From positions 43,166-107,165 of the forward strand of contig CAZMYW010000008.1 of NCBI GenBank assembly GCA_964570625.1: 64,000 nt of DNA, in the 5' to 3' direction. A program made the position numbers and the translations under genes. The notes under the pieces were generated by a model. It was not told where the DNA came from, made no database searches, and was given only the letters and a program-made list of their open reading frames with translations. Origin of the DNA: an uncultured Nitrospirota bacterium (GTDB lineage: Bacteria; Nitrospirota; Nitrospiria; 2-01-FULL-66-17). This document shows, in pieces, positions 17,565-47,190 of the stretch; the stretch's first letter is position 1; every line of letters starts with the position of its first letter.

Positions 17565-17652
17565 GGAAAATCCCCGCAGCACGCGGTCTGTTCTCATGGT
17601 CTCGAGACGCCCGTCAGTCAGTTAATAGCTCGGCAACACGTTGAGTCGTAAC

Positions 17653-18921
17653 ATGCGCCGGTTGACCTTCCGGGTAGGACTAGTTCTTGTCCTGGCGGCT
17701 GCCGTGGGGCTGGGGTTACTGTCATACCTGAAGTCTCCCGTGATCTTCGGACTGCGGGAAGATATCAAACACGCGATTCCGCCTCAGGCTGTTCCCACCG
17801 GTGTTGGGGACCTCTCCGCCGAGGCGTGCGGTTCCTGCCACCGAGAGATCTACGAGGAGTGGAAAACCTCGATCCACTCGCAGGCGTTCGTGGACCCATT
17901 TTTCCAGGCGTACTGGAAGAAGGATCAACACATCTGGGTCTGCCTGAACTGCCACGCCCCGTTGCAAAATCAGCAGCAGATAGTGGTGACCGACCTGCGA
18001 GGCGGGCGGATCGACCGCCCGGAGAGTCATCCCAATCCGGATTTTGATCCCGCGCTGCAGCGCGAAGGAATCACCTGCGCGGTTTGCCACGTGCGGGACG
18101 GCGTGATCCTGGGGCCGTTCGACGACTCGGTCGCGCCCCATCCGACCAGGTATGACCCCCGCTATCGCAGCACGGACATCTGTTACACCTGCCACGCGGT
18201 GCCGTCGGATCGATTTCAGTTTTATAACGGCGGCCCATGTGCGACGTTCATGGAGTATGAAGCCGGGCCGTACAAAGCCAAGGGCTACATCTGCCAGGAC
18301 TGTCACATGCCCGAGGTGGAACGGGTGATGGCCGAGGGTGGTCCCGTCCGCAAGGGCCGTCGTCACTTGTGGCGTGGCGGGCACGACCCCGAGCAGCTCA
18401 AACGGGCGTTCACCGCGGTGCTGGCGGCCGATGAGCCGCGCTTGGCGGGAAGCCAGAAAACGACGTGGACGCTCACCATGACCAACAGTGGCGCTGGGCA
18501 TATGTTGCCGACCGGCGATCCTGATCGCTATTTTCTGACCGAGATCGAAGTCCGCGATCGCACCGGGCGGGTCGTGGCATCCCGTAGCGACACCATTCGG
18601 CGATGGATCGTGTGGTGGCCGGTCATCTATGAATACCGCGATACGCGGATTCCTCCGCTGGCGTCGCGGGAGCTGACGATGGACTATACGGTGCCGGATG
18701 TGGACGAGGGACTGACGATCACCGCCCGCGTGTCATACCACTTCATGACCGATCGCCAATACCAGCGCCTGAAGACCAAATACGGACTCGATGTCGACAA
18801 GACGTACGCGTTTACGCTGTATGAGCAGACCGTGCCGTTACGGGCTGGCGAATCCGTGCCTCATGTCGCACAGAGTGCCGTCACGCCGGCGTGCGCTACG
18901 TCCAGCAACGAGGCGGGGTAG
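17653..18921 (+). CDS. Membrane-anchored pentaheme c-type cytochrome with C-terminal beta-rich domain
   Basis: Five CxxCH motifs (CGSCH, CLNCH, CAVCH, CYTCH, CQDCH), N-terminal hydrophobic anchor and GHMLPTG motif. Confidence 0.88.
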   Translation: MRRLTFRVGLVLVLAAAVGLGLLSYLKSPVIFGLREDIKHAIPPQAVPTGVGDLSAEACGSCHREIYEEWKTSIHSQAFVDPFFQAYWKKDQHIWVCLNCHAPLQNQQQIVVTDLRGGRIDRPESHPNPDFDPALQREGITCAVCHVRDGVILGPFDDSVAPHPTRYDPRYRSTDICYTCHAVPSDRFQFYNGGPCATFMEYEAGPYKAKGYICQDCHMPEVERVMAEGGPVRKGRRHLWRGGHDPEQLKRAFTAVLAADEPRLAGSQKTTWTLTMTNSGAGHMLPTGDPDRYFLTEIEVRDRTGRVVASRSDTIRRWIVWWPVIYEYRDTRIPPLASRELTMDYTVPDVDEGLTITARVSYHFMTDRQYQRLKTKYGLDVDKTYAFTLYEQTVPLRAGESVPHVAQSAVTPACATSSNEAG

Positions 18922-23487: not shown

Positions 23488-23600
23488 GCGGTCGATCCCT
23501 GACTCGCGCCACCATACGCGGGGGGAGGTGATCGTGTCAACGTGGCGCGGGCCGATTATAATGTCGGCTGTCAGCGGTGAACACACCAGGGGAGGGGACG

Positions 23601-25091
23601 ATGAGGGAACGGGTGGAGAATCTCATCAACGGACGATGGCAGCTCGCGGCAGGGGGACACACGCTGGAGAGCCGCAACCCTGCGGATATCGGCGATGTGG
23701 TGGCCGTCGCGCCCATGTCGTCCACTCGCGACGTCAACGACGCGGTGAGCGCCGCCCAGGCCGCGTTTCCCGGATGGCGCGCCGTGCCGGCTCCGAAGCG
23801 AGGAGAGATCCTCTTTCGCGCCGCCGAGGGTTTGGCCAGAGAAAAGGAGTCGCTCGCGCAGATCGTGACGCGCGAGATGGGGAAGGTGATCGCGGAGGCT
23901 CGGGGCGACGTACAAGAAGCGATCGACATGACCTATTACATGGCCGGCGAGGGGCGGCGGCTCGCGGGCGAGACGGTTCCGTCCGAGCTGCCCAACAAGG
24001 ACGCCAAAAGCGTACGCGTGCCGTTGGGCGTGGCCGCGTTGATCACGCCGTGGAACTTTCCGGTCGCGATCCCCTCGTGGAAGATCACGCCGGCCCTCGT
24101 CGCAGGCAACACCGTGGTCCTCAAACCTTCGGCGTTCACGCCGTTGTGCGCGACTCGATTCGTCCAGATCCTTCAGGACGCGGGTTTGCCGCCGGGCGTG
24201 TTGAATCTCGTACACGGCCACGGCGAGGGCGTAGGCGACGCGCTGGTGAGCCATCCCGACGTGGCGGTCGTCTCGTTCACCGGGTCCTCGGCAGTAGGGG
24301 AAAAAGTCGAGGCCGTCTGCGGCCGGCTCCATCGACCAGTGTGCACCGAGACCGGTGGCAAAAACGTGGTGATTGTCATGAACGACGCGGATCTGGATCT
24401 GGCTCTGGAAGGCGCGCTCTGGGGCGGATTCGGAACCAGCGGCCAGCGCTGTACCGCCGCGAGCCGAGTCATCGTCCACGAGGCTCTGTACGACGCGTTT
24501 GTCGCCCGTTTCGTGGCGGCGGCCGAAACGTTGCGGCTCGGGCCTGGGCTCGACCCCATGACGGACGTCGGCCCGGTGATCAACGCGTCGCAACAACAGA
24601 GGGTGTTGGAGTACATCGAGATCGGCAAACAAGAAGGTGCCAAGCTCCTGTGCGGCGGACACGCCGTGACTACCGAGGCGTTGGCCGCGGGTCACTTCAT
24701 CGCGCCCACGATCTTCGGCGACGTCGCGCCGACCATGCGGATCGCGCAGGAGGAAATTTTCGGCCCCGTGGTCGCCGTCATCAGAGCCCGAGATGTCTCG
24801 CAGGCCATTGAGATCGCCAATGGTGTACCGTATGGGCTTTCCAGCGCGATCTATACGCGGGACGTGAATACCAGTGCGCTGGCCGAGCGAGAATTGGATA
24901 CCGGTATCGTGTATATCAACGCGTCGACGATCGGAGCCGAGATCCAACTGCCGTTCGGCGGAACCAAAAAGACCGGCCTTGGTCCACGAGAAGCCGGCGG
25001 CCGCGGCGGCGCGCTGGATCTCTACACGAAGTGGAAGGTGATCTACCGCGACTTTTCCGGCAAGCTGCAGAAGGCCCAGATCGATCCGTAG
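23601..25091 (+). CDS. Aldehyde dehydrogenase
   Basis: ITPWNFP, SFTGS, ETGGKN, GQRCTA and QEEIFGPV. RBS GGAGG. Confidence 0.95.
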   Translation: MRERVENLINGRWQLAAGGHTLESRNPADIGDVVAVAPMSSTRDVNDAVSAAQAAFPGWRAVPAPKRGEILFRAAEGLAREKESLAQIVTREMGKVIAEARGDVQEAIDMTYYMAGEGRRLAGETVPSELPNKDAKSVRVPLGVAALITPWNFPVAIPSWKITPALVAGNTVVLKPSAFTPLCATRFVQILQDAGLPPGVLNLVHGHGEGVGDALVSHPDVAVVSFTGSSAVGEKVEAVCGRLHRPVCTETGGKNVVIVMNDADLDLALEGALWGGFGTSGQRCTAASRVIVHEALYDAFVARFVAAAETLRLGPGLDPMTDVGPVINASQQQRVLEYIEIGKQEGAKLLCGGHAVTTEALAAGHFIAPTIFGDVAPTMRIAQEEIFGPVVAVIRARDVSQAIEIANGVPYGLSSAIYTRDVNTSALAERELDTGIVYINASTIGAEIQLPFGGTKKTGLGPREAGGRGGALDLYTKWKVIYRDFSGKLQKAQIDP

Positions 25092-35095: not shown

Positions 35096-35395
35096 TCAGG
35101 GTTGACGGCCTGACCCCTGGTTCCGAAGCGAGCCGTACAAATACCAACCCATCCAGAGGCGTCCGATCCAGACGCCGAGTCGGCCGCGTCCCATCCACGT
35201 CAGCAGGGTGGTCCCGGCGGCCACCGTGAACCAATGCGCGCGCAGCTCGCGCGCGAGCGTGAGCCCGCTGTCCGCCAGTGTGATGGTCGTCTGCCACGGC
35301 TGCACCAGACGGCCGAGCGTGTGTCGTTGCGCTTCCGCCCGCGCCACCAAGGCCTCCCGGCGTTGTTGGACGGCCGTTATTCGCTCGGTCATCAT
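35096..35395 (-). CDS. YqjK-like protein
   Basis: RREALVARAEAQR..L; third gene of a yqjD-E-K-like cluster. Confidence 0.7.
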   Translation of the reverse strand: MMTERITAVQQRREALVARAEAQRHTLGRLVQPWQTTITLADSGLTLARELRAHWFTVAAGTTLLTWMGRGRLGVWIGRLWMGWYLYGSLRNQGSGRQP

Positions 35396-35799
35396 CTGGT
35401 CAATCGCTCCCGGTCTTTGGCGAACTCCGCCAACGTGGTGGCGAACAGCCGGGGCCGAGTCTTGAGGCGTTGGCGCAGGGTGACGGCCGAGAAAATTCCG
35501 AGTCCGAGATACAGCAGGGCGAAGCCGCCCAGCGCGTACACGCGGTAGCTGTCCCAGAACAGGACGACGATAAAGAGAGTCAGGAGCAGAAACCCGAAGC
35601 CGAGAAAGAACAGCGCGAAGGAACCGAACACAATCAATTCCCGCAGCCGCTCGCGCTCTTCTTCGAGTTCGGTGGCGACGATTTCCGCCCGCGTCTGCAG
35701 GACGTCGAGTACGGTGGCCACGAACCGTTGCAATGAATCGAGCAGGCCGGTGGCACGGAGCGGGTCGGCCGTGCTCGCGCGGCCGTCGGTCTTATCCAC
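35392..35799 (-). CDS. YqjE-like membrane protein (phage holin-like family)
   Basis: TRAEIVATELEEER, two TM helices, F..T..E..KDRE. Confidence 0.8.
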   Translation of the reverse strand: MDKTDGRASTADPLRATGLLDSLQRFVATVLDVLQTRAEIVATELEEERERLRELIVFGSFALFFLGFGFLLLTLFIVVLFWDSYRVYALGGFALLYLGLGIFSAVTLRQRLKTRPRLFATTLAEFAKDRERLTR

Positions 35800-36211: not shown

Positions 36212-37072
36212 CTATTTGGACTTCAAGAACCGGAAGAACTCGGAGTCGGGGCTGAGCACCAGGGTGGTGTCTTTGTCCAGCGCCTTGATGTAAGCTTCCA
36301 TGGATCGCATGAACTCGAAAAATTCCGGATCGCGTCCGTAGGCCTGCGCGTAGATCTTGAACGCTTGGGCGTCTCCGCCGCCCATGAGCGCCTGGGACGT
36401 CTTGTATGCCTCCGCCAACAGAATCTCCCGTTCTTTCTCGGCTTCGGATCGAATCTTCTGTGCCTCTTCCGCCCCTTCGGATCGATACCGCTTGGCCTCT
36501 CGTTCGCGTTCGGCTTGCATTCTGGTGAACACGGCTTTTTCGTTCTGCTCGGGAAGGTCCGCGCGTTTGATCCGCACGTCTTCCACCTCGATCCCGTACG
36601 GGGTGGCCTTCTCGTTGGCCCGTGCGGTCACGGTCTCCATGAGGGCCGACCGCGTCTGGGAGACGATTTCCGAAAGCGTGTGCCGGCCCAGCTCAACGCG
36701 TAGTTCGGAGTAGATGATGTCATCCAGCCGCGCCAGTGCGGCCTGCTGGGTTTGGAACGCCTCGTAGACTTTGAGCGGGTCTTTGATCCGCCACTTGGCG
36801 AAGTTGTCGATCAACAACGTCTTCTTGTCGGTCGTGATCACGTCCTGTGAAACCGCGTCGTAGTCCAGCAGGCGTTTGTCGAAATAGACCACGTTTTGCA
36901 CGAGCGGAATCTTCAGCTTCAAGCCGGCCTCGGTGATGGTGCGGACGGGTTTGCCCAGTTGGATTACGATCGCGGTCTCTGTCACGTCCACCACGAAAAA
37001 CGGGGACGCTCCAGCCAGCATCAGGACCACGATTGCGATGAGAGCCCACAACACGACGGCTTGTTTCTTCAC
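36212..37072 (-). CDS. hflC: Protease modulator HflC
   Basis: SPFH domain, YGIEVEDVRIKRADLP, DPEFFEF.RS..AY. Confidence 0.93.
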   Translation of the reverse strand: MKKQAVVLWALIAIVVLMLAGASPFFVVDVTETAIVIQLGKPVRTITEAGLKLKIPLVQNVVYFDKRLLDYDAVSQDVITTDKKTLLIDNFAKWRIKDPLKVYEAFQTQQAALARLDDIIYSELRVELGRHTLSEIVSQTRSALMETVTARANEKATPYGIEVEDVRIKRADLPEQNEKAVFTRMQAEREREAKRYRSEGAEEAQKIRSEAEKEREILLAEAYKTSQALMGGGDAQAFKIYAQAYGRDPEFFEFMRSMEAYIKALDKDTTLVLSPDSEFFRFLKSK

Positions 37073-38100
37073 GGCGCCGAGGCTCCTGCGCCCGACCCCG
37101 ACGGTCTCGGTTCACGCGTGAGCGGGAGGTAGGGCAGCGTGCGCTCGCTGATTTTCCCGTCGATGATAATCTTATTCATTCCGGGCAACACGGTCTCCAT
37201 CGTTTCCAGATAAATGCGCTTCCGGATGATGGGTTTGGCCTGCTGGTACTCCTTGAGCGTTTTGGTGAACCGGTCTGCTTCGCCTTCGGCGCGCCGGGCC
37301 CGCGCTTGCGCATACCCCTGCGCCTGGTTGATCACCTGCGCGGCTTCGCCCTTGGCTTTGGGAATGATGTCGTTTCGGTACCCCTGGGCTTCGTTGATCA
37401 GTTTCTCCTTGTCTTCCTTGGCGCTGGCCACGTCTTTAAAGGCGCCGGCGACTTGCTCGGGCGGGTCCACGTCCTGGAGTTGGATCGCCGCCACTTGAAC
37501 TCCGGCGCCGTAGTCGTCCAGGACTTGCTGCAACAGGTGCTGCGTACTATCTTGGATTTCGGCCTTCCCCGTGGTGAGCGCTTCGTCAATGTGGCTTTGC
37601 CCGATGACTTGACGGACGGCGGCCTCAGTGGCTTTCATGATGGTCTCGCCCATATCCGCCACGTTGAAGAGAAAGTCCTCCGCGTCTTTGATGCGAAACT
37701 GCACGATCAATTCTACGCTCAGGATGTTCTCGTCCCCGGTGACCATGAGGGCTTCGCGGGGCACGGTGGTGGTCCCGCCTTGCGCGTTGGAGCGGAATCC
37801 GACTTCAATGCGGTGGAGCTTGGTGACTTTCGGGATGAGTGCGGTTTCGATGAGCGGAATTTTGAAATGTGGGCCGGGAGGCGTGATCCGTACTACGCGG
37901 CCGAAGCGTTTGACCACGCCCTGCTCGTCGGGCGCGACGATGTAAAATCCTTGCCAGGCCACAAAGACGGCGATGAGTAGGCCGATGATCGGAGTCCAAC
38001 CGCGAAACCCGAAGACACGCCGCAGGCGCTGCTGGACCTCCGCCCACTGCCGCTCAAAGTCCGCTTTGCCGCCGCCCAAGTCCCTGGGCTCCCAGGCCAT
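37069..38100 (-). CDS. hflK: Protease modulator HflK
   Basis: MAWEP, TGDENI, AFKDV..A..D and RIYLETME.VL. Confidence 0.93.
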   Translation of the reverse strand: MAWEPRDLGGGKADFERQWAEVQQRLRRVFGFRGWTPIIGLLIAVFVAWQGFYIVAPDEQGVVKRFGRVVRITPPGPHFKIPLIETALIPKVTKLHRIEVGFRSNAQGGTTTVPREALMVTGDENILSVELIVQFRIKDAEDFLFNVADMGETIMKATEAAVRQVIGQSHIDEALTTGKAEIQDSTQHLLQQVLDDYGAGVQVAAIQLQDVDPPEQVAGAFKDVASAKEDKEKLINEAQGYRNDIIPKAKGEAAQVINQAQGYAQARARRAEGEADRFTKTLKEYQQAKPIIRKRIYLETMETVLPGMNKIIIDGKISERTLPYLPLTREPRPSGSGAGASAP

Positions 38101-41017: not shown

Positions 41018-42326
41018 CGCTCGGCCGGCTCTGCTGCCGGTGGATGCGGCGCTCAAGTCCGTGCTCGCCGCCACTCGGTTCTTGGGTGCCGAACGCGTGC
41101 CCGTGACGGAAGCGCTGGGACGGGTGCTGGGCCAAGACATGGTCGCCACGCGCGATATCCCCCCTTGGGACAACTCGTCGGTCGACGGCTATGCCGTGCG
41201 CGCCGTGGATGTGGCGTCGGCGGCTCCGGATCGACCGGTCACGCTGACCGTGATCGAAGAAATCCCCGCGGGCCTCATGCCGACCAACACCGTGACGTCG
41301 GGGACGGCCGCGCGCATCATGACGGGTGCACCCATGCCGCTTGGCGCGGATGCGGTCGTGATGGTGGAGGAGACGTCGCTGGACAACGACCGGGCGCTGA
41401 TGCGTGCGGCGGCCGAGCCGGGCGAGTCGGTGCGCCGGCGCGGTCAAGACGTGCGGGAAGGGACCGTGGTGATCCCGGGGGGCCGTCGCTTACGACCGGC
41501 CGAGGTCGGCATGGTGGCCTCGTTGGGACACGCCGCCGTCACGGTCGGCCGGAGGCCGCGCGTGGGCATTCTCGCCACCGGGGACGAACTGATCGATCTC
41601 GGGGAACCGGAACGACCGGATCGCATCTATAACGTGAACAGCTATGCGGTGGCGGCACAGGTGTGCGAAGCCGGGGGAGTGCCCGTGGTCATGGGCATCG
41701 CGCGGGATACGCCGTCTTCGCTGCGTGCTGCGCTGGATGGCCTCGACGGCCTCGACGCGTTGATCGTGTGCGGCGGGGTATCGGTGGGGAAATTCGATTT
41801 TGTGAAGGACGTGTTGACCGAGCTGGGGATGGTCATGCAGTTCTGGCGCGTGGCCATGAAACCGGGGAGCCCGATGGCCTTCGGTTCGGTCGACGGGAGG
41901 CCGGTGTTCGGCTTGCCGGGTAATCCCGTGTCGTCGATGGTGACGTTCGAGGTGTTTGTGCGGCCGGCGCTCCTTCAGATGGCCGGAGCGACCGCCGTGG
42001 ATCGGCCCAGCCTCGTGGCGGAGTTGGTCGAACCGATCGACAAGGCGCCCGGTAAGACCCATTTCATTCGGGCGCGGGTCTGGCGAAACGGCCCGCGCGT
42101 GTGTGCGGCGTCGACGGGTTCGCAAGACTCCGGCGTCCTCACATCGATGGTCAAAGCCGAGGGATTGATTGTGCTCTCGCAAGACGCGGGTCGCGTCGAG
42201 GCGGGAGCGCTGGTTGATGTGCGCCTCCTCCAGGGAGAGAGGCAGCCCACTGAAGGAGGGGACGATGGCATTCGAGGCGTTTATTCTGGTCAACGTGACG
42301 GGCGATCACACCAAGAGCGCGTATAA
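41010..42326 (+). CDS. moeA: Molybdopterin molybdotransferase MoeA
   Basis: PPWDNSSVDGYA, RIMTGAPMP, TGDEL, GGVSVG.FD and KPG..FGLPGNPVS. Start uncertain. Confidence 0.93.
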   Translation: MGSARPALLPVDAALKSVLAATRFLGAERVPVTEALGRVLGQDMVATRDIPPWDNSSVDGYAVRAVDVASAAPDRPVTLTVIEEIPAGLMPTNTVTSGTAARIMTGAPMPLGADAVVMVEETSLDNDRALMRAAAEPGESVRRRGQDVREGTVVIPGGRRLRPAEVGMVASLGHAAVTVGRRPRVGILATGDELIDLGEPERPDRIYNVNSYAVAAQVCEAGGVPVVMGIARDTPSSLRAALDGLDGLDALIVCGGVSVGKFDFVKDVLTELGMVMQFWRVAMKPGSPMAFGSVDGRPVFGLPGNPVSSMVTFEVFVRPALLQMAGATAVDRPSLVAELVEPIDKAPGKTHFIRARVWRNGPRVCAASTGSQDSGVLTSMVKAEGLIVLSQDAGRVEAGALVDVRLLQGERQPTEGGDDGIRGVYSGQRDGRSHQERV

Positions 42327-42516
42327 GACGCTGACTCGCCTGGAAGGTATCAAAGGGGTCCACATGGTCACCGGGGTGTACGACTTGGTCGTCCAGGTGG
42401 CGGCGCAAGACCTCACCCACCTCGGAGACGTCATCCTCCCCAACATCCGTGCGGTCGACGGGGTCACGCAGACCATGACGTGTCTCGTGTTATCGCCGCC
42501 CGCTCCCCACCACTAA
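42265..42516 (+). CDS. Lrp/AsnC ligand-binding-domain-only protein
   Basis: AFILVNV, VTGVYDLVV and IRAVDGV..T.T; 83 aa with no HTH; GGAGG RBS. Confidence 0.8.
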   Translation: MAFEAFILVNVTGDHTKSAYKTLTRLEGIKGVHMVTGVYDLVVQVAAQDLTHLGDVILPNIRAVDGVTQTMTCLVLSPPAPHH

Positions 42517-42518
42517 CC

Positions 42519-44168
42519 GTGTTCGTCGGTCCGGTCGCTCGGTCTGTATTGGCCGCCGTCGGCGGCCTGCTTGCGGCTGCCGCATGTTCTCGGATGCCTC
42601 CGGCGGCCGAGTCGGTCGGGTTCGTGGATGTCACAGCGCGCGCGGGCGTGCGGGCGGTACACTCGAGCGGCGCCGACGGGCGGGCGTGGTACCCAGAGAC
42701 CTTCGGCGCGGGGGTGTGCGTGACCGACTTCGACGCGGACGACCGGCCCGACCTTCTGTTCATCAGCGGTCGGCGATGGGAAGATCCGGAACCGGGGCCC
42801 GGCGTGGCTGCATATCGCAACCGGGGAGATGGAACGTTCGAGGATGTGACTAAGGTATCTCGACTCAGCAAGTCCCACTACGGGATGGGCTGCGCGGCGG
42901 CCGACTATGACAACGACGGGCGCGAAGACGTGCTGCTCACCGGCCACGGCGGTCTGTCGCTGTTCCACAACGAGGGGGGCGGTCGATTCGCGGATGTGAC
43001 GGACGCCGCGGGAGTGGGCGACGCGGGCTGGAGCACGTGCGCCGTCTGGTTCGACGCGGACGCGGACGGACAGCTGGACCTGTTCGTGTGCCGCTACGTG
43101 GTCTGGTCGCCGGAGACCGACCGCGTCTGTCGTCTGGAGGGCCGCGTGAAAGTGTTCTGCGGTCCCGATCCGTATCCTCCTGATTCGCCCAGGTTCTTCC
43201 GCAACCTGGGCTCCGGCCGATTTGAAGACGTGACGGTTCGCGCCGGACTCGCCAAGCCGGGCAAGGCGCTCGGCGTCGCGATGCTGGACGCGGACGGAGA
43301 TGGTCGAGTCGATCTCTTCGTGGCGAACGATCAGATGCCGAACTATCTGTATCGCAACGCGAGCGACGGAACCTTCGAGGACTGGACCTCGAAACTCGCC
43401 CCCTGGCCCGGCCGGTTCGGCATGGCGCGCGCCGGAATGGGGATCGACGTGGATGATGCGCTCGGGCGCACCGTCATCGGTAACTTCATCGGCGAAGGGT
43501 TTGCGCTGTATCAGCGCGGGGACGACGGTCGCTTTCACGATCGCGTGCGAGACACCGGACTGTTCGGGCCGAGCCTTCCGTTCCTCACGTTCGGGCTCGT
43601 GTTCGTTGATGGGGATCTAGACGGGTGGCTGGACGTGGTGGCCGCCAACGGGCACGTGGACGCCAACCTGGCCCGCGCGCTCGATGGCGGGGCCCCGCAA
43701 GCCGAACGGCCGCTGGTGTTTCGCGGCAACGATGACGCCACATACGCAGAGGTCGGCGCAACGGTCGGGCTCAGCACCCCGTTTGTGGGTCGCGGCTTGG
43801 CGACCGCCGATCTCGATCTCGACGGCGATTCGGATCTGGTGTTTACCGAGAACAACGGACCGGCTCGTCTCTATCGCAATGGACTCGCAAAAGGACATTG
43901 GCTCAGGATCAAACCGGTCGGGGTATCGAGTAATCGCGACGGCGTGGGCGCGTTGGTTAACGTGACGGCGGGTGGGCGGACCCAGACGCGGATGGTCAGG
44001 ACCGGGTCGAGTTACCTTTCTCAGAGCGAACGTGCGGTGCTGTTCGGGTTGGGCAACGCCGCGTCGGTCGATGAGATCACGGTTCGCTGGCCCAGCGGGA
44101 CCATCGATCGATGGATGTCCGTACCAGCGGGGCAGCGGGTGACGCTGGTTGAAGGTTCAGGTCGGTGA
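42519..44168 (+). CDS. CRTAC1-family (FG-GAP/VCBS repeats + ASPIC/UnbV) lipoprotein
   Basis: Possible lipobox AAAC; repeated DFDADD, DYDNDG, DADADG, DADGDG, DGDLDG and DLDLDG loops; C-terminal GSSYLSQS..FGLG..VRWPSG. Confidence 0.88.
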   Translation: MFVGPVARSVLAAVGGLLAAAACSRMPPAAESVGFVDVTARAGVRAVHSSGADGRAWYPETFGAGVCVTDFDADDRPDLLFISGRRWEDPEPGPGVAAYRNRGDGTFEDVTKVSRLSKSHYGMGCAAADYDNDGREDVLLTGHGGLSLFHNEGGGRFADVTDAAGVGDAGWSTCAVWFDADADGQLDLFVCRYVVWSPETDRVCRLEGRVKVFCGPDPYPPDSPRFFRNLGSGRFEDVTVRAGLAKPGKALGVAMLDADGDGRVDLFVANDQMPNYLYRNASDGTFEDWTSKLAPWPGRFGMARAGMGIDVDDALGRTVIGNFIGEGFALYQRGDDGRFHDRVRDTGLFGPSLPFLTFGLVFVDGDLDGWLDVVAANGHVDANLARALDGGAPQAERPLVFRGNDDATYAEVGATVGLSTPFVGRGLATADLDLDGDSDLVFTENNGPARLYRNGLAKGHWLRIKPVGVSSNRDGVGALVNVTAGGRTQTRMVRTGSSYLSQSERAVLFGLGNAASVDEITVRWPSGTIDRWMSVPAGQRVTLVEGSGR

Positions 44169-44238
44169 GCGCCGAAAAAGACTGGTGAAGTCGCTTACCA
44201 GGGGTCTCGCAGAGTAAGATGTCGAGCGGGAGCATCCC

Positions 44239-47190
44239 ATGAGATCGACTCCAATCTGGAGTCCGCCGCACCAGAAGAGATTGCGACTGGCGGCCATCTG
44301 CGCGTTGGTCGTGACAACGTTAGCCGGTCCGTCCCTGGCGGTTGCCCAACTGTCCGAGCGGCCGGGTACGTCGACCGATACCTCGCTCGGGGCCAAAGAT
44401 GTGACCGGAAAATCGGTGAAGGATCGCCGCGTGCGCGTCGTCCACTCCGAGGACCCCACGGTCGAAGGTGGTTCGCGGTATCTGCAGGAAGTTGATCCCT
44501 GGCTGGCGTTTCAGCGCGGAAAGAACCTGACGCAACGGGAGTTTCGCGCCCGCGACGGCGCGTTCGGACGGGCCGGGTCGTTTTTCGAGCCGAAGTTGTT
44601 GGGGGATCGCGTGACGCCGCGTCTGGGCCGCGATCACGTCAATTCGTGCGGGCTCTGCCACGGGATCCCGTTTCGTGAGCCTGGGGCTGGCGGCAATATT
44701 CCCAAAGGAGCGGGAGAGGGACGGAACACCCCCCACTTCTTCGGCGGCGGGATGGTTGAGATGATCGGGCTGCAAACCCGCCTCAAGGTTCTCCAAGCCT
44801 GCGACTCCGCGCGCCGGGGATTCATTCACATCCGCGACATCCCCAAGGAGCCGATTCTGATCGGGCCGACTCCCGGTGCGTCGTCGATCAACTATGGATG
44901 GTGCGGCGACCGCAACCAGGACGGGGCGCCGGACCTCAACAATGTGTTCCGGGTGTGGTACGTGGACGAGGGTGGGCGCCGCGTCACCATGGACAGCAAC
45001 GGAGACGGGGTGGTCAATCTGCGCGACCCCGATGTGGCGGGCTACAACTTGGAGATGATGGCGTTCGGTTGGGGGGAGACCGAAGGGGCGATGGCTCCCA
45101 CGCTACGCGTGTTTTTCAACGATCCGATCGACACCCACACCGGGATGCAGGCCCATGATCCCACGATGCAGGTTGATGACGGATTGCACGGTGACGACCA
45201 GGCCGGCGACGGACTGGCCGCGGTTTCGATCGCCGGGGCGCGGCAGTTCGCGATCCACGCGCCGGCCGACCGGGGTCTTCGCGTCAACGACCGTGGCCTG
45301 AGCCTGGACGACCCCGACGGGGATGACGTGATCAACGAGATTTCCGAAGGGGATGTCGATCTGGTGGAGTGGTACATGTTGAACGCGCCGGTTCCCGGCG
45401 TCGGTCGGCAAACGGCACAGACCAGGCGGGGTCGCGCGGTGTTCGACACAGTCGGCTGTGCCACCTGTCACGTGCCTGATTGGCGGATTGAAGCGGCCAG
45501 TCCGGACCACTCCGATCGACACCAGCGGTACGACGGTGATCGACGGTTTTTCGATCTGTCGGTCGCGTACCGGGAACAGGCCGCACGCCTGGAAGGCGCG
45601 GTGACTCTCTTGGCGGATCAGAAGGCCGGACGCTGGATGCCGCGCCGCGGTGCCGCGACGGTCCACGGGATCTTCTCGGATTTCAAACACCATGAGATGG
45701 GCCAGGCATTCGCCGAGACCTTGTTCAATGGAGCGAAGGTAACCCGATTCCGCACGGCTCCTTTGTGGGGCGTCGGGAGTTCGGCACCGTACGGGCATGA
45801 CGGCGCCAGCCTGACCTTGGACGACGTGATCCGTCGACACGGCGGAGAAGCCGCGGAGGTGGCAGCGCGCTACCGTCGCGCGCCGGCGCAAGACCGGGAC
45901 GCGCTCGTCGGGTTTCTCCAGAGTCTAGTGCTCTATCAGGGCGACCACGTGCCGACTGACTTGAACGGAGACGGCGCAGTGTCGGAACATTTTATGGTTG
46001 CGGGACGAGACACCGGAGTGGAGCGATTCAACCCCGAATGGTTGTTTCGCGCGCCGTGCGCGATCGAAGGGCCGGCCCGTGCGCCTGATGGATCTGCGAT
46101 CACATCGTTCGCGTGCGTGAATGCGCCGGAGGCCTACGGGGAGTCGCTGGCCTGGCTTCGCGATGCGGACGACGACGGGTTCCCCGATCCGAGCGACCCC
46201 TGCCCCGCTGCAACCGGATACGCGACCGGATGCCCGGCGTCGACCGAAGCGGCAGCCGCGCTCGCCATCACACCTGCGAGCGACGTGGCCTCGACCGTGG
46301 CGTTAGCCGTGGACCCGCGGACGCCGCGCATCGTCTGGGCCGCAGGCACGGACGGGTGGGGCGTGCGGAGGAGTCTGGACGCCGGACGGACGTGGCGAAC
46401 GATGACGGTCGATCCGCGGGTGGCCCACGCCACGGCCGTGGCCGTCGATCCGAGCGATTCGAACGTGGTGTACGTCGGCTCGTCGTCGGGCGTGTTCGTC
46501 AGTCGCGATGGCGGAGCGACCTGGGCGCTGCGGGACGAAGGGATGAGCGATCCACGGGTATTCGCGCTCGCCGTCAATCTGCGCTCGCCCCATACCGTGT
46601 ACGCCGGTGGGTTCGGCGGACGGCTGTACCGTTCGACCGACGGCGGAGCGACCTGGGCGGAGACGCGGATCGGATCCGATGTGTACCGCGTCACCTCGTT
46701 GGCGGTGGATGCCGGCGACTCCAGTGTTCCTGCGTTGGAGAATCGAGCGAACGCCCTTTACGCGGGCACGAGCGGCGGCGGGGCGTTCCGAAGCGACGAC
46801 GGGGGGGGCACATGGCGGGCGCTGCCGGGTCTCTCGGAACGCATCGTGTACGCGATCGGTCTCGACCCGCGGATCCCCAGCACGATCTACGCCGGGACAC
46901 CAGCCGGCGTCTACCGCAGCCTGGACCGTGGCGGCGTCTGGACCCAAGCGGGACCCGGACCGTCGGTTCCGGTGTTGTGTCTGGCGGTCGATCCGGAGCG
47001 ACCGGCGGCGGTGCTGGTCGGGACCCCGGACGGGGTGATGGCGACGGCGGACGGCGGACTGACCTGGCGTCGCGGCGTTGGGATTGCAGCGGACGGTCCG
47101 GTCGTGTCGTTGGTGCTTGATCCGTGGAATCCGAACATGGCGTACGCAGCGACGTTCGGCGGGCGGGTGGTGGGCGGAACCGCGCGGTAG
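44239..47190 (+). CDS. Exported di-heme oxidoreductase (DHOR-like) fused to an Asp-box beta-propeller
   Basis: Signal peptide; CGLCH and CATCH; FRTAPLWGVG, YGHDG and RHGGEA; six SxDGGxTW-like boxes in the last ~300 aa. Confidence 0.8.
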   Translation: MRSTPIWSPPHQKRLRLAAICALVVTTLAGPSLAVAQLSERPGTSTDTSLGAKDVTGKSVKDRRVRVVHSEDPTVEGGSRYLQEVDPWLAFQRGKNLTQREFRARDGAFGRAGSFFEPKLLGDRVTPRLGRDHVNSCGLCHGIPFREPGAGGNIPKGAGEGRNTPHFFGGGMVEMIGLQTRLKVLQACDSARRGFIHIRDIPKEPILIGPTPGASSINYGWCGDRNQDGAPDLNNVFRVWYVDEGGRRVTMDSNGDGVVNLRDPDVAGYNLEMMAFGWGETEGAMAPTLRVFFNDPIDTHTGMQAHDPTMQVDDGLHGDDQAGDGLAAVSIAGARQFAIHAPADRGLRVNDRGLSLDDPDGDDVINEISEGDVDLVEWYMLNAPVPGVGRQTAQTRRGRAVFDTVGCATCHVPDWRIEAASPDHSDRHQRYDGDRRFFDLSVAYREQAARLEGAVTLLADQKAGRWMPRRGAATVHGIFSDFKHHEMGQAFAETLFNGAKVTRFRTAPLWGVGSSAPYGHDGASLTLDDVIRRHGGEAAEVAARYRRAPAQDRDALVGFLQSLVLYQGDHVPTDLNGDGAVSEHFMVAGRDTGVERFNPEWLFRAPCAIEGPARAPDGSAITSFACVNAPEAYGESLAWLRDADDDGFPDPSDPCPAATGYATGCPASTEAAAALAITPASDVASTVALAVDPRTPRIVWAAGTDGWGVRRSLDAGRTWRTMTVDPRVAHATAVAVDPSDSNVVYVGSSSGVFVSRDGGATWALRDEGMSDPRVFALAVNLRSPHTVYAGGFGGRLYRSTDGGATWAETRIGSDVYRVTSLAVDAGDSSVPALENRANALYAGTSGGGAFRSDDGGGTWRALPGLSERIVYAIGLDPRIPSTIYAGTPAGVYRSLDRGGVWTQAGPGPSVPVLCLAVDPERPAAVLVGTPDGVMATADGGLTWRRGVGIAADGPVVSLVLDPWNPNMAYAATFGGRVVGGTAR

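What the first reader, a model, noticed from the sequence alone, without database searches (positions are those of the whole stretch)
42519..47190. Candidate new exported redox system: FG-GAP/ASPIC-UnbV lipoprotein plus di-heme enzyme
Seen: two adjacent co-oriented exported proteins 70 bp apart, both rich in DxDxDG-type Ca loops and both with beta-propeller repeats. One is probably lipid-anchored; the other carries two c-type hemes. Known: DHOR-family proteins are uncharacterised relatives of di-heme peroxidases, a superfamily that includes protein-modifying enzymes (MauG, MbnH, BthA), and they usually sit with imelysin iron-uptake genes, which are absent here. CRTAC1-like bacterial proteins have no defined function. 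Inference: a Ca-dependent cell-surface complex in which the di-heme enzyme oxidises a substrate held by the propellers, or modifies the lipoprotein partner.
Basis: partly seen in the sequence, partly recalled or inferred. Interest (0 to 1): 0.72.

Follow-up and report, generated by a model that had tools for sequence, protein, structure and literature searches.

The report
Di-heme enzyme paired with propeller lipoprotein
Two neighbouring genes of a Nitrospirota bacterium encode an exported calcium-binding propeller lipoprotein and a two-heme enzyme fused to a second propeller; the pairing recurs in unrelated bacteria, so they probably work together in the cell envelope, but their chemistry is unknown and both families are already catalogued.

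Summary
Gene A (42519-44168, +) is a CRTAC1-family protein: six FG-GAP_3 repeats, an UnbV_ASPIC domain, five DxDxDG loops and a conserved lipobox. Gene B (44239-47190, +) is Sec-exported, has two CxxCH motifs, belongs to the DHOR branch of the bCCP/MauG superfamily, and ends in a BNR/Asp-box propeller.

The pair is kept in all five Nitrospirota loci read. Two have a 4-nt stop/start overlap. Two have two unknown membrane-protein genes inserted between A and B. CRTAC1/FG-GAP genes also lie directly beside DHOR genes in about five other lineages. However, roughly 30 stand-alone relatives of gene B (40-52% identical) almost all lack such a neighbour.

CRTAC1 paralogs sit next to other c-type cytochromes, and a 2025 paper places CRTAC1 genes inside hydrazine-synthase-homolog clusters. 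The residue aligned with the Met ligand of bCCP is an invariant His. This predicts a bis-His relay heme and argues against MauG-type modification of the partner.

Verdict: a real, probably co-transcribed envelope redox module. It is a new variant of catalogued but uncharacterised families. The linkage is supported; complex formation, substrate and location are inferred. Interest is moderate.

The parts
42265..42516 (+). 83-aa stand-alone Lrp/AsnC ligand-binding (RAM) domain ORF. It overlaps the end of MoeA and stops 2 nt before gene A. It may be the first gene of the same transcription unit.
   Evidence: Pfam AsnC_trans_reg E 3e-14; translation; the same gene sits directly upstream of the CRTAC1 ortholog in L001 and L002
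42519..44168 (+). Gene A: CRTAC1-family lipoprotein, 549 aa. Ca-binding FG-GAP beta-propeller plus a C-terminal UnbV/ASPIC domain.
   Evidence: Pfam FG-GAP_3 x6 and UnbV_ASPIC; PDB 9etn CRTAC1 E 1.7e-16; 5 DxDxDG motifs; orthologs 65-84% identical in Nitrospirota
42519..42587 (+). Signal peptide and lipobox of gene A (..LLAAAA-C23)
   Evidence: Single N-terminal hydrophobic segment; Cys23 conserved in 19 of 21 orthologs and absent from paralogs
43941..44144 (+). UnbV_ASPIC domain of gene A (aa 475-542)
   Evidence: Pfam PF07593, 71.7 bits
44169..44238 (+). 70-bp spacer with a GGGAG Shine-Dalgarno-like sequence ahead of the gene B ATG. No promoter-like or terminator-like site.
   Evidence: Sequence; promoter/terminator scan. 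In L001 and L024 the two genes overlap by 4 nt instead.
44239..47190 (+). Gene B: exported di-heme c oxidoreductase (DHOR branch of the bCCP/MauG superfamily) fused to a BNR/Asp-box propeller, 983 aa
   Evidence: Pfam; homologs; AF2 model pLDDT 84; fold searches
44239..44346 (+). Sec signal peptide of gene B (aa 1-36, cleavage AVA|QLSERPG). The mature N-terminus is conserved family-wide.
44647..44661 (+). Heme-binding motif 1, CGLCH (aa 137-141)
   Evidence: C137, C140 and H141 invariant in 119 sequences
45457..45471 (+). Heme-binding motif 2, CATCH (aa 407-411)
   Evidence: C407, C410 and H411 invariant
45838..45840 (+). His534 (RRHGG), the predicted sixth ligand of the C-terminal heme, giving bis-His coordination
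   Evidence: Aligns with Met275 of P. aeruginosa CCP 1eb7. Invariant in the family. Kept as IRAH in classical DHOR genes of L092 and L045.
46162..46206 (+). Thrombospondin-type-3-like Ca loop / linker DADDDGFPDPSDPCP (aa 642-656), ending the di-heme domain
   Evidence: D642, D644, D646, G647, D653 and P656 invariant
46291..47181 (+). C-terminal BNR/Asp-box beta-propeller (aa ~685-981) with six Asp-boxes
   Evidence: Pfam BNR, Sortilin-Vps10, PSII_BNR; PDB 3b7f, GH74, Ycf48; Asp-box positions

Best explanation
Genes A and B form a co-transcribed envelope redox module of a Nitrospirota bacterium.

Gene B is the catalyst. After Sec export and covalent attachment of two c-type hemes, its N-terminal heme is the reactive site for a small oxidant or substrate. 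Its C-terminal heme is ligated by His411 and His534 and relays electrons. The chemistry is that of a peroxidase or oxidoreductase, not of MauG.

The enzyme's own BNR propeller and the lipid-anchored, Ca-loaded CRTAC1 propeller (gene A) act as docking and substrate-binding platforms. They hold the enzyme at the membrane and present the still unknown substrate.

Shown: domain architectures, export signals, conservation, tight and recurrent gene linkage.
Inferred: physical complex, heme ligation, redox role, role of the propellers, location.
For: 1. Architecture and export signals are established.
2. The pair is conserved in all five Nitrospirota loci read: window, L001, L002, L006, L024. L001 and L024 have ATGA/GTGA stop/start overlaps. 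No terminator lies in the window spacer. Matching contig lengths for P0003/P0123 and P0012/P0132 suggest two further co-located pairs; these were not read.
3. Independent adjacency, co-oriented: L092, L045, L017 and L040. FG-GAP proteins also flank the distant DHOR-BNR fusions in L021 and L022.
4. All nine CRTAC1-HMM hits in 979 kb lie within 3 kb of the DHOR gene. The chance of this for 5-6 independent lineages is about 0.006-0.015.
5. CRTAC1 paralogs sit directly after 4- or 5-heme TPR cytochromes in L105 and L107, with a 1-nt overlap in L107.
6. Published parallels exist. A CRTAC1 gene lies between homologs of hydrazine synthase alpha and beta-gamma subunits (PMC12758564). The classical DUF1111 operon contains the DUF1513 beta-propeller (bioRxiv 10.1101/072470).
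7. The di-heme domain's best PDB fold matches are bCCPs, MbnH and MauG. It shares the TAPYxHxG motif with them, and His534 aligns with the CCP Met ligand.
Against: About 30 stand-alone homologs of gene B, 40-52% identical, have no CRTAC1 neighbour, so the enzyme does not need the partner.

Within Nitrospirota the whole upstream region is syntenic (AIM24-M48-methyltransferase-MoeA-RAM), so part of the conservation reflects shared ancestry.

In L002 and L006 two other genes separate A and B.

Fold similarity to bCCP/MauG is weak (E ~2e-3, TM 0.28-0.30), and the first heme region is poorly modelled (pLDDT below 50).

No interface prediction, transcript data or biochemistry was available.
Confidence: 0.45

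Rival explanations
1. MauG/MbnH-type maturation. The di-heme enzyme uses H2O2 to oxidise a residue (Trp, Tyr or Cys) of the CRTAC1 lipoprotein, creating a protein-derived cofactor or metal site.
For: The superfamily includes partner-modifying enzymes, and MbnH (6e1c) and MauG (4l1q) are among the best fold matches. Genes are tightly coupled. Four extra Cys residues (C67, C125, C174, C191) are conserved in the DHOR-linked orthologs and are uncommon in paralogs.
Against: The ligand position holds an invariant His, not Tyr. Tyr-to-His variants of MauG and BthA cannot form the bis-Fe(IV) state (PMC6405878). Stand-alone homologs about 50% identical lack any CRTAC1 partner. CRTAC1 paralogs pair with unrelated multiheme cytochromes.
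Confidence: 0.1
2. Iron or other metal acquisition, as proposed for classical DHOR systems. The di-heme protein changes the redox state of iron in the periplasm. The propellers take the place of the DUF1513 propeller and imelysin partners.
For: Classical DUF1111 operons (EfeO-like, DUF1111, EfeO-like, DUF1513 propeller) are cofit and linked to iron uptake (bioRxiv 10.1101/072470; PMC3143127). In L001, Fur, a Bfd-like ferredoxin and ferritin lie 2-8 kb downstream.
Against: No imelysin/EfeO, Ftr1/EfeU or TonB-receptor gene is adjacent in the window or in L002 and L024. The L001 iron genes are not conserved in the window, where AlgH and beta-oxidation genes follow instead. Only the C-terminal fifth of the DHOR profile matches gene B.
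Confidence: 0.15
3. No functional coupling. These are two independent exported proteins whose adjacency reflects inherited synteny in one Nitrospirota clade.
For: The whole upstream block is syntenic across the Nitrospirota loci. Most DHOR loci (60 of 69 assessable) have no CRTAC1 neighbour. FG-GAP/CRTAC1 genes form large paralog families in soil phyla (PMC3174227).
Against: There are 4-nt overlaps in two loci. Adjacency recurs in about five other lineages with different DHOR subtypes, gene orders and contexts. No CRTAC1 hits occur further than 3 kb away in 456 kb of far-flank DNA.
Confidence: 0.2
4. Oxidative glycan-processing machine. The BNR (GH74-like) and FG-GAP propellers bind a polysaccharide, and the hemes support its oxidative cleavage or modification.
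For: The best whole-protein fold hits are GH74 xyloglucanases and a BNR 'glycosyl hydrolase'. There is an NCBIfam F510_1955 glycosylhydrolase hit of 107 bits.
Against: The NCBIfam hit is below its cutoff (107 against 175 bits). GH74 catalysis needs two propellers forming a cleft, and single BNR propellers such as Ycf48 are binding scaffolds. No CAZyme, SusC/D or sugar-transport genes are nearby.
Confidence: 0.07

Closest known systems
DHOR / DUF1111 (PF06537) di-heme proteins of the imelysin (EfeO-like)-DUF1111-DUF1513 operons
   Same: Exported protein with two CxxCH motifs. Shares the conserved C-terminal block FRTAPLWGV..HDG..IR(R/A)H, including the predicted His ligand. The classical system also has a beta-propeller partner (DUF1513).
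   Different: Gene B is about 150 aa longer in the di-heme part, and only profile positions 408-499 of 499 match. There is no imelysin or DUF1513 context. A BNR propeller is fused to the C-terminus. The partner is a CRTAC1 lipoprotein.
Bacterial di-heme cytochrome c peroxidases, MauG, MbnH and BthA (CCP_MauG superfamily)
   Same: Best structural matches are 1nml, 2c1u, 6e1c and 4l1q. Shares the TAPYxHxG motif and two heme domains.
   Different: No PF03150 hit. Twice the size. The Met (CCP) or Tyr (MauG, BthA) ligand position is His. Similarity is weak (TM 0.28-0.30).
Hydrazine synthase and its non-anammox homolog clusters (PMC12758564)
   Same: Combination of beta-propellers, a CCP-like di-heme module with a bis-His relay heme, and an embedded CRTAC1-family FG-GAP gene.
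   Different: 5c2v is absent from the top 50 fold hits and reaches only E 0.39 by profile. Domain order is reversed (hemes first, then propeller). The propeller is of the BNR type. There are no alpha or beta-gamma homologs.
CRTAC1 / ASPIC-UnbV family (human CRTAC1, PDB 9etn; enediyne 'E4/UnbV')
   Same: FG-GAP_3 propeller with DxDxDG Ca loops plus an UnbV_ASPIC domain. The C204-C214 Cys pair is universal in the family.
   Different: Lipobox anchoring and four extra conserved Cys residues are specific to the Nitrospirota orthologs. No function is known for any bacterial member.
Multiheme-TPR cytochrome + CRTAC1 gene pairs (L105, L107)
   Same: An exported c-type heme protein gene immediately upstream of, and sometimes overlapping, a CRTAC1 gene. 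In L105 a BNR/Sortilin propeller gene is also in the cluster.
   Different: The heme partner is a 4- or 5-heme c554-like/TPR protein unrelated to DHOR. The BNR propeller is a separate gene rather than a fusion.

Membership tests
DHOR (PF06537) | Pfam model hit above the gathering score | tested here: met
   46.3 bits against a cutoff of 22, but only profile positions 408-499 of 499 match. Homologs carry a precomputed PF06537 assignment.
DHOR (PF06537) | Two CxxCH heme c motifs in an exported protein | tested here: met
   CGLCH at aa 137 and CATCH at aa 407, both invariant, plus a signal peptide
DHOR (PF06537) | Operon context with imelysin/EfeO-like and DUF1513 genes | tested here: not met
   Neighbours are MoeA, a RAM-domain ORF, AlgH and beta-oxidation genes. 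The same holds in L001 and L002.
bCCP/MauG superfamily | Two-domain di-heme fold | tested here: inconclusive
   The top 23 PDB hits are all bCCP, MbnH or MauG with probability 0.85-1.0. However, E is 2e-3 to 4e-2 and TM is 0.26-0.30.
bCCP/MauG superfamily | PF03150 (CCP_MauG) hit | tested here: not met
   Not among the Pfam hits at E <= 0.01
bCCP (canonical peroxidase) | His/Met ligation of the electron-transfer heme | tested here: not met
   Met275 of 1eb7 aligns with the invariant His534. This is a sequence inference, not spectroscopy.
MauG/BthA type | His/Tyr ligation that supports the bis-Fe(IV) state | tested here: not met
   The same position is His. The role of the Tyr is taken from PMC6405878.
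CRTAC1 family | FG-GAP_3 repeats plus a C-terminal UnbV_ASPIC domain | tested here: met
   9etn E 1.7e-16
CRTAC1 family | DxDxDG Ca-binding loops in the propeller blades | tested here: met
   5 motifs against 0.13 expected. Ca binding itself was not tested.
Bacterial lipoprotein | Signal peptide ending in a lipobox with an invariant Cys | tested here: met
   LAAAA-C23, with the Cys conserved in 19 of 21 orthologs. Acylation is not testable here.
BNR/Asp-box propeller | Repeated SxDxGxTW boxes and a propeller fold | tested here: met
   Six boxes. Fold hits to GH74, 3b7f and 7-bladed WD40 proteins, with TMt up to 0.81.
F510_1955 / GH74-type glycoside hydrolase | Family model above its cutoff, and a two-propeller catalytic cleft | tested here: not met
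   107 bits against a cutoff of 175. Only one propeller is present.
Hydrazine-synthase-like cluster | Homologs of the HZS alpha and beta-gamma subunits | tested here: not met
   5c2v_C reaches only E 0.39 with the profile and is absent from the top 50 fold hits
Hydrazine-synthase-like cluster | CRTAC1-family gene within the cluster | tested here: met
   Gene A. The published pattern is described in PMC12758564.

The most novel reading that the evidence does not exclude
CRTAC1-family Ca-propellers are general partners of exported c-type heme enzymes: DHOR, multiheme-TPR cytochromes and hydrazine-synthase-like proteins. Together they would define a widespread, unrecognised class of envelope oxidoreductase complexes. 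The Nitrospirota DHOR-BNR/CRTAC1 module would then carry out small-molecule nitrogen-oxide or hydroxylamine/peroxide chemistry, mechanistically akin to a half-reaction of hydrazine synthase.
Probability: 0.07. Interest if true: 0.85.

Novelty: new variant of a known kind. Interest (0 to 1): 0.48.

Why it matters
Bacterial CRTAC1/ASPIC-UnbV proteins and DHOR di-heme proteins are both very large families with no established biochemistry. This survey shows that CRTAC1 propellers repeatedly sit in operons with exported c-type heme proteins of three unrelated kinds. That gives a testable handle: co-express a pair and look for a complex and a redox activity. The Nitrospirota pair is compact, with two genes, one of them a natural enzyme-propeller fusion, and so is a convenient test case. 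It may also bear on how the propeller plus di-heme architecture of hydrazine synthase arose. If the link proves to be only structural anchoring, the finding is an ordinary annotation refinement.

Tried and rejected
- Whole-protein fold search was swamped by propeller hits. I re-modelled the di-heme domain alone.
- The full-length representative search was likewise dominated by BNR-repeat proteins. It was useful only to show that the fusion is rare.
- The first literature search with the prefix 'DHOR' returned Dhori virus and Dhorpatan papers.
- The genome-contig scan used an unspecific DxDxDGF pattern and yielded only 15 loci. The metagenome scan returned mostly short contigs.
- The two inserted genes X and Y had no Pfam, NCBIfam or PDB match. 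My impression that Y looks like a GT-C glycosyltransferase could not be substantiated and is dropped.
- Aligning the 70-bp spacer with the junctions in L001, L002, L006 and L024 gave no evidence of a deletion scar.
- The BNR domain is 31% identical to the BNR protein of L105. Many BNR proteins score as well or better, so this is not evidence of a specific relationship.
- Hydrazine-synthase homology was considered and rejected.
Full report
OBSERVATION

The window is a 63% GC chromosomal stretch of housekeeping genes: DnaE, AccA, LptD, RelA/SpoT, RecJ, HrpB, MoeA and a beta-oxidation operon. The best homologs come from Nitrospirota / Nitrospiria MAGs.

Two co-oriented ORFs occupy the stated coordinates.

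Gene A (42519-44168):
- Pfam finds six FG-GAP_3 stretches (E 3e-40) and a C-terminal UnbV_ASPIC domain (E 4.5e-20).
- It matches the solved human CRTAC1 structure 9etn at E 1.7e-16.
- It has five Dx[DN]x[DN]G loops, against 0.13 expected from shuffles.
- Its only hydrophobic segment is N-terminal and ends in LLAAAA-C23.
- The ortholog alignment supports the GTG start at 42519. The Cys is kept in 19 of 21 orthologs, whereas 97 paralogs have Ala, Leu or Val at that position.
- The database gene call (P0121, 524 aa, ATG 42594) would remove this signal and is probably wrong.

Gene B (44239-47190):
- It has a signal peptide with cleavage at AVA|QLSERPG.
- It has two CxxCH motifs (aa 137 and 407) that are invariant in 119 homologs.
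- It has four strict DxDxDG loops plus a thrombospondin-type-3-like DADDDGFPDPSDPCP linker.
- Its Pfam DHOR hit is above threshold but limited to the last 92 profile positions.
- Residues ~685-981 carry six Asp-boxes and model as a propeller. This domain resembles GH74 enzymes, the BNR protein 3b7f, Ycf48 and seven-bladed WD40 proteins.

No imelysin gene is nearby.

IS THE PAIRING MEANINGFUL?

Within Nitrospirota, every orthologous locus I could read keeps gene A upstream of gene B on the same strand: the window, L001, L002, L006 and L024. I did not read those contigs.

In L001 and L024 the stop codon of A overlaps the start codon of B (ATGA and GTGA). In the window there are 70 bp with a GGGAG ribosome-binding-like site and no terminator-like or promoter-like site.

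In L002 and L006, two further overlapping genes lie between A and B:
- X has 3 predicted transmembrane segments. Y has at least 6.
- Neither has any Pfam, NCBIfam or PDB match.
- They are only 35-42% identical between the two loci, while A and B are 66-77% identical.

The whole upstream block is also syntenic: AIM24, M48 peptidase, methyltransferase, MoeA, and an 83-aa RAM-domain ORF that abuts gene A. Conservation inside this clade is therefore not, on its own, proof of a functional link.

Outside the clade the picture is mixed.

Against a link: about 30 stand-alone di-heme homologs of roughly 650 aa, 40-52% identical, almost never have a CRTAC1 neighbour within 10 kb. They come from Planctomycetota, Acidobacteriota, Verrucomicrobiota and Eremiobacterota.

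For a link: a CRTAC1-family HMM run over 979 kb of DHOR-flanking DNA found nine hits, and every one lies directly beside the DHOR gene.
- Four are the Nitrospirota loci other than the window.
- L092: CRTAC1 gene, then a classical 486-aa DHOR gene after a 55-bp gap.
- L045: DHOR gene followed by a CRTAC1 gene.
- L017: CRTAC1-like gene followed by two tandem long-type DHOR genes.
- L040: FG-GAP gene followed by a long-type DHOR gene.
- L022: an FG-GAP protein divergent from a distant DHOR-BNR fusion.
- L021 is similar by Pfam.

No hit fell in the 456 kb lying more than 3 kb from a DHOR gene. For five to six independent lineages this has a chance probability of about 0.006-0.015.

The association is therefore real and recurrent, but facultative. 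It was found in nine of 69 assessable loci.

WIDER PATTERN

The nearest paralogs of gene A (46-51% identity) lie next to other exported c-type cytochromes.
- In L105 (Nitrospiria) a four-heme c554-like/TPR protein precedes the CRTAC1 gene. A separate BNR/Sortilin propeller and three FGE-sulfatase-domain genes lie upstream.
- In L107 a five-heme TPR protein overlaps the CRTAC1 start by one nucleotide, and several CRTAC1 copies follow.
- L104 and L106 combine CRTAC1 with multiheme, PD40-propeller and FGE-sulfatase genes.

Two published patterns fit the same theme.
- A 2025 study reports a CRTAC1-family FG-GAP gene between homologs of the hydrazine synthase alpha and beta-gamma subunits. These subunits combine a propeller with a CCP-like di-heme module. 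The clusters occur in non-anammox Planctomycetota, Desulfobacterota and Acidobacteriota (PMC12758564).
- The classical DUF1111 operon contains the DUF1513 beta-propeller (bioRxiv 10.1101/072470; PMC3143127).

The recurring theme is an exported c-heme enzyme together with beta-propeller partners. Gene B itself is rare: only two 50%-identity clusters (P0011, P0019) carry the DHOR-BNR fusion among 1.84 billion representatives.

WHAT KIND OF DI-HEME ENZYME?

The di-heme domain modelled alone is confident (pLDDT 86, pTM 0.90), except around the first heme motif.

Its best PDB matches are all bacterial cytochrome c peroxidases, MbnH and MauG, but the scores are weak (E 2e-3 to 4e-2, TM 0.26-0.30). 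Hydrazine synthase is not among the top 50 hits. No close relative has been solved.

Profile alignment to P. aeruginosa CCP (1eb7) aligns FRTAPLWGVGSTAPYGHDG with FRAAPLRNVALTAPYFHSG. It places the invariant His534 of RRHGG exactly on Met275, which I recall, not verified here, to be the axial ligand of the electron-transfer heme. The His is retained in classical DHOR genes as IRAH.

I therefore predict bis-His ligation of the C-terminal heme, as described for hydrazine synthase hemes gamma-II and alpha-II (PMC12758564). This differs from the His/Met of bCCP and the His/Tyr of MauG and BthA.

Tyr-to-His variants of MauG and BthA lose the bis-Fe(IV) state yet keep peroxidase activity (PMC6405878). 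This argues against MauG-like long-range oxidation of the partner protein. It favours ordinary electron relay to a reactive N-terminal heme.

MECHANISM PROPOSED (confidence 0.45)

I propose a co-transcribed envelope module.
- Gene B is the redox catalyst.
- Its fused BNR propeller and the lipid-anchored Ca-propeller of gene A are docking and substrate-binding platforms.
- The substrate is unknown.

Shown: architectures, export signals, conservation, linkage. Inferred: the complex, the ligands, the roles and the location.

Rivals:
- MauG/MbnH-type maturation of the lipoprotein (0.10).
- Iron handling as in classical DHOR systems (0.15). The only local hint is Fur, Bfd and ferritin genes downstream in L001.
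- No functional coupling (0.20).
- Oxidative glycan processing (0.07).

COMPARISON AND NOVELTY

NCBI already names orthologs 'di-heme oxidoreductase family protein' and 'CRTAC1 family protein', so the families are catalogued.

What is new:
- the DHOR-BNR fusion;
- its tight coupling to a lipoprotein CRTAC1;
- the optional X/Y membrane genes;
- the broader observation that CRTAC1 propellers accompany three unrelated kinds of exported heme proteins.

This is a new variant of a known, though uncharacterised, kind. Interest is moderate (0.48). It is a good experimental entry point into two large families of unknown function. It does not overturn an expectation, and no chemistry can yet be assigned.

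Noticed in passing
L002:5475-8008 and L006:7459-9986: Two extra overlapping membrane-protein genes sit between the CRTAC1 and DHOR-BNR orthologs in some Nitrospirota loci. X is about 385 aa with 3 TM segments; Y is about 460 aa with at least 6. They are absent from the window, L001 and L024. They have no Pfam, NCBIfam or PDB match and evolve much faster (35-42% identity) than the flanking genes.
   Followed up: partly
window 42265-42516 (+): An 83-aa stand-alone Lrp/AsnC ligand-binding (RAM) domain ORF overlaps the MoeA stop (42326) and ends 2 nt before gene A. The same arrangement occurs in L001 and L002. This suggests an operon running from MoeA to gene B.
   Followed up: partly
window 42519 vs 42594: The database gene call for gene A (P0121, 524 aa) starts at ATG 42594 and removes the signal peptide and lipobox. 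Ortholog alignment supports GTG 42519.
   Followed up: yes
window 17641-18921 (+): A 426-aa exported protein has five CxxCH motifs and weak Pfam hits to MtrC/MtrF domain II/IV and cytochrome c7. It is a separate multiheme cytochrome, unrelated to the finding.
   Followed up: no
window 23571-24947 (-): A 458-aa ORF has no Pfam hit and atypical codon-position composition (GC1 0.79, GC3 0.67) compared with its neighbours.
   Followed up: no
L104, L105, L106, L107: CRTAC1 paralog neighbourhoods repeatedly combine multiheme-TPR cytochromes, several FGE-sulfatase-domain genes, PD40 or BNR propellers and giant (>3000 aa) proteins. An FGE-sulfatase gene also lies on the contig of the distant DHOR-BNR fusion in L023.
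   Followed up: partly
L017:5585-9392: A tandem duplicate of the long-type DHOR gene lies downstream of a CRTAC1-like gene in a Thermoanaerobaculia MAG.
   Followed up: no
window 36212-38100 (-) and 35392-35799 (-): Two adjacent SPFH/Band-7 genes and a holin-X-like (Phage_holin_3_6) small membrane protein lie upstream of the AIM24-M48 block.
   Followed up: no
window 1-64000: No tRNA gene and no Rfam family above gathering score was found in the whole 64-kb window.
   Followed up: yes
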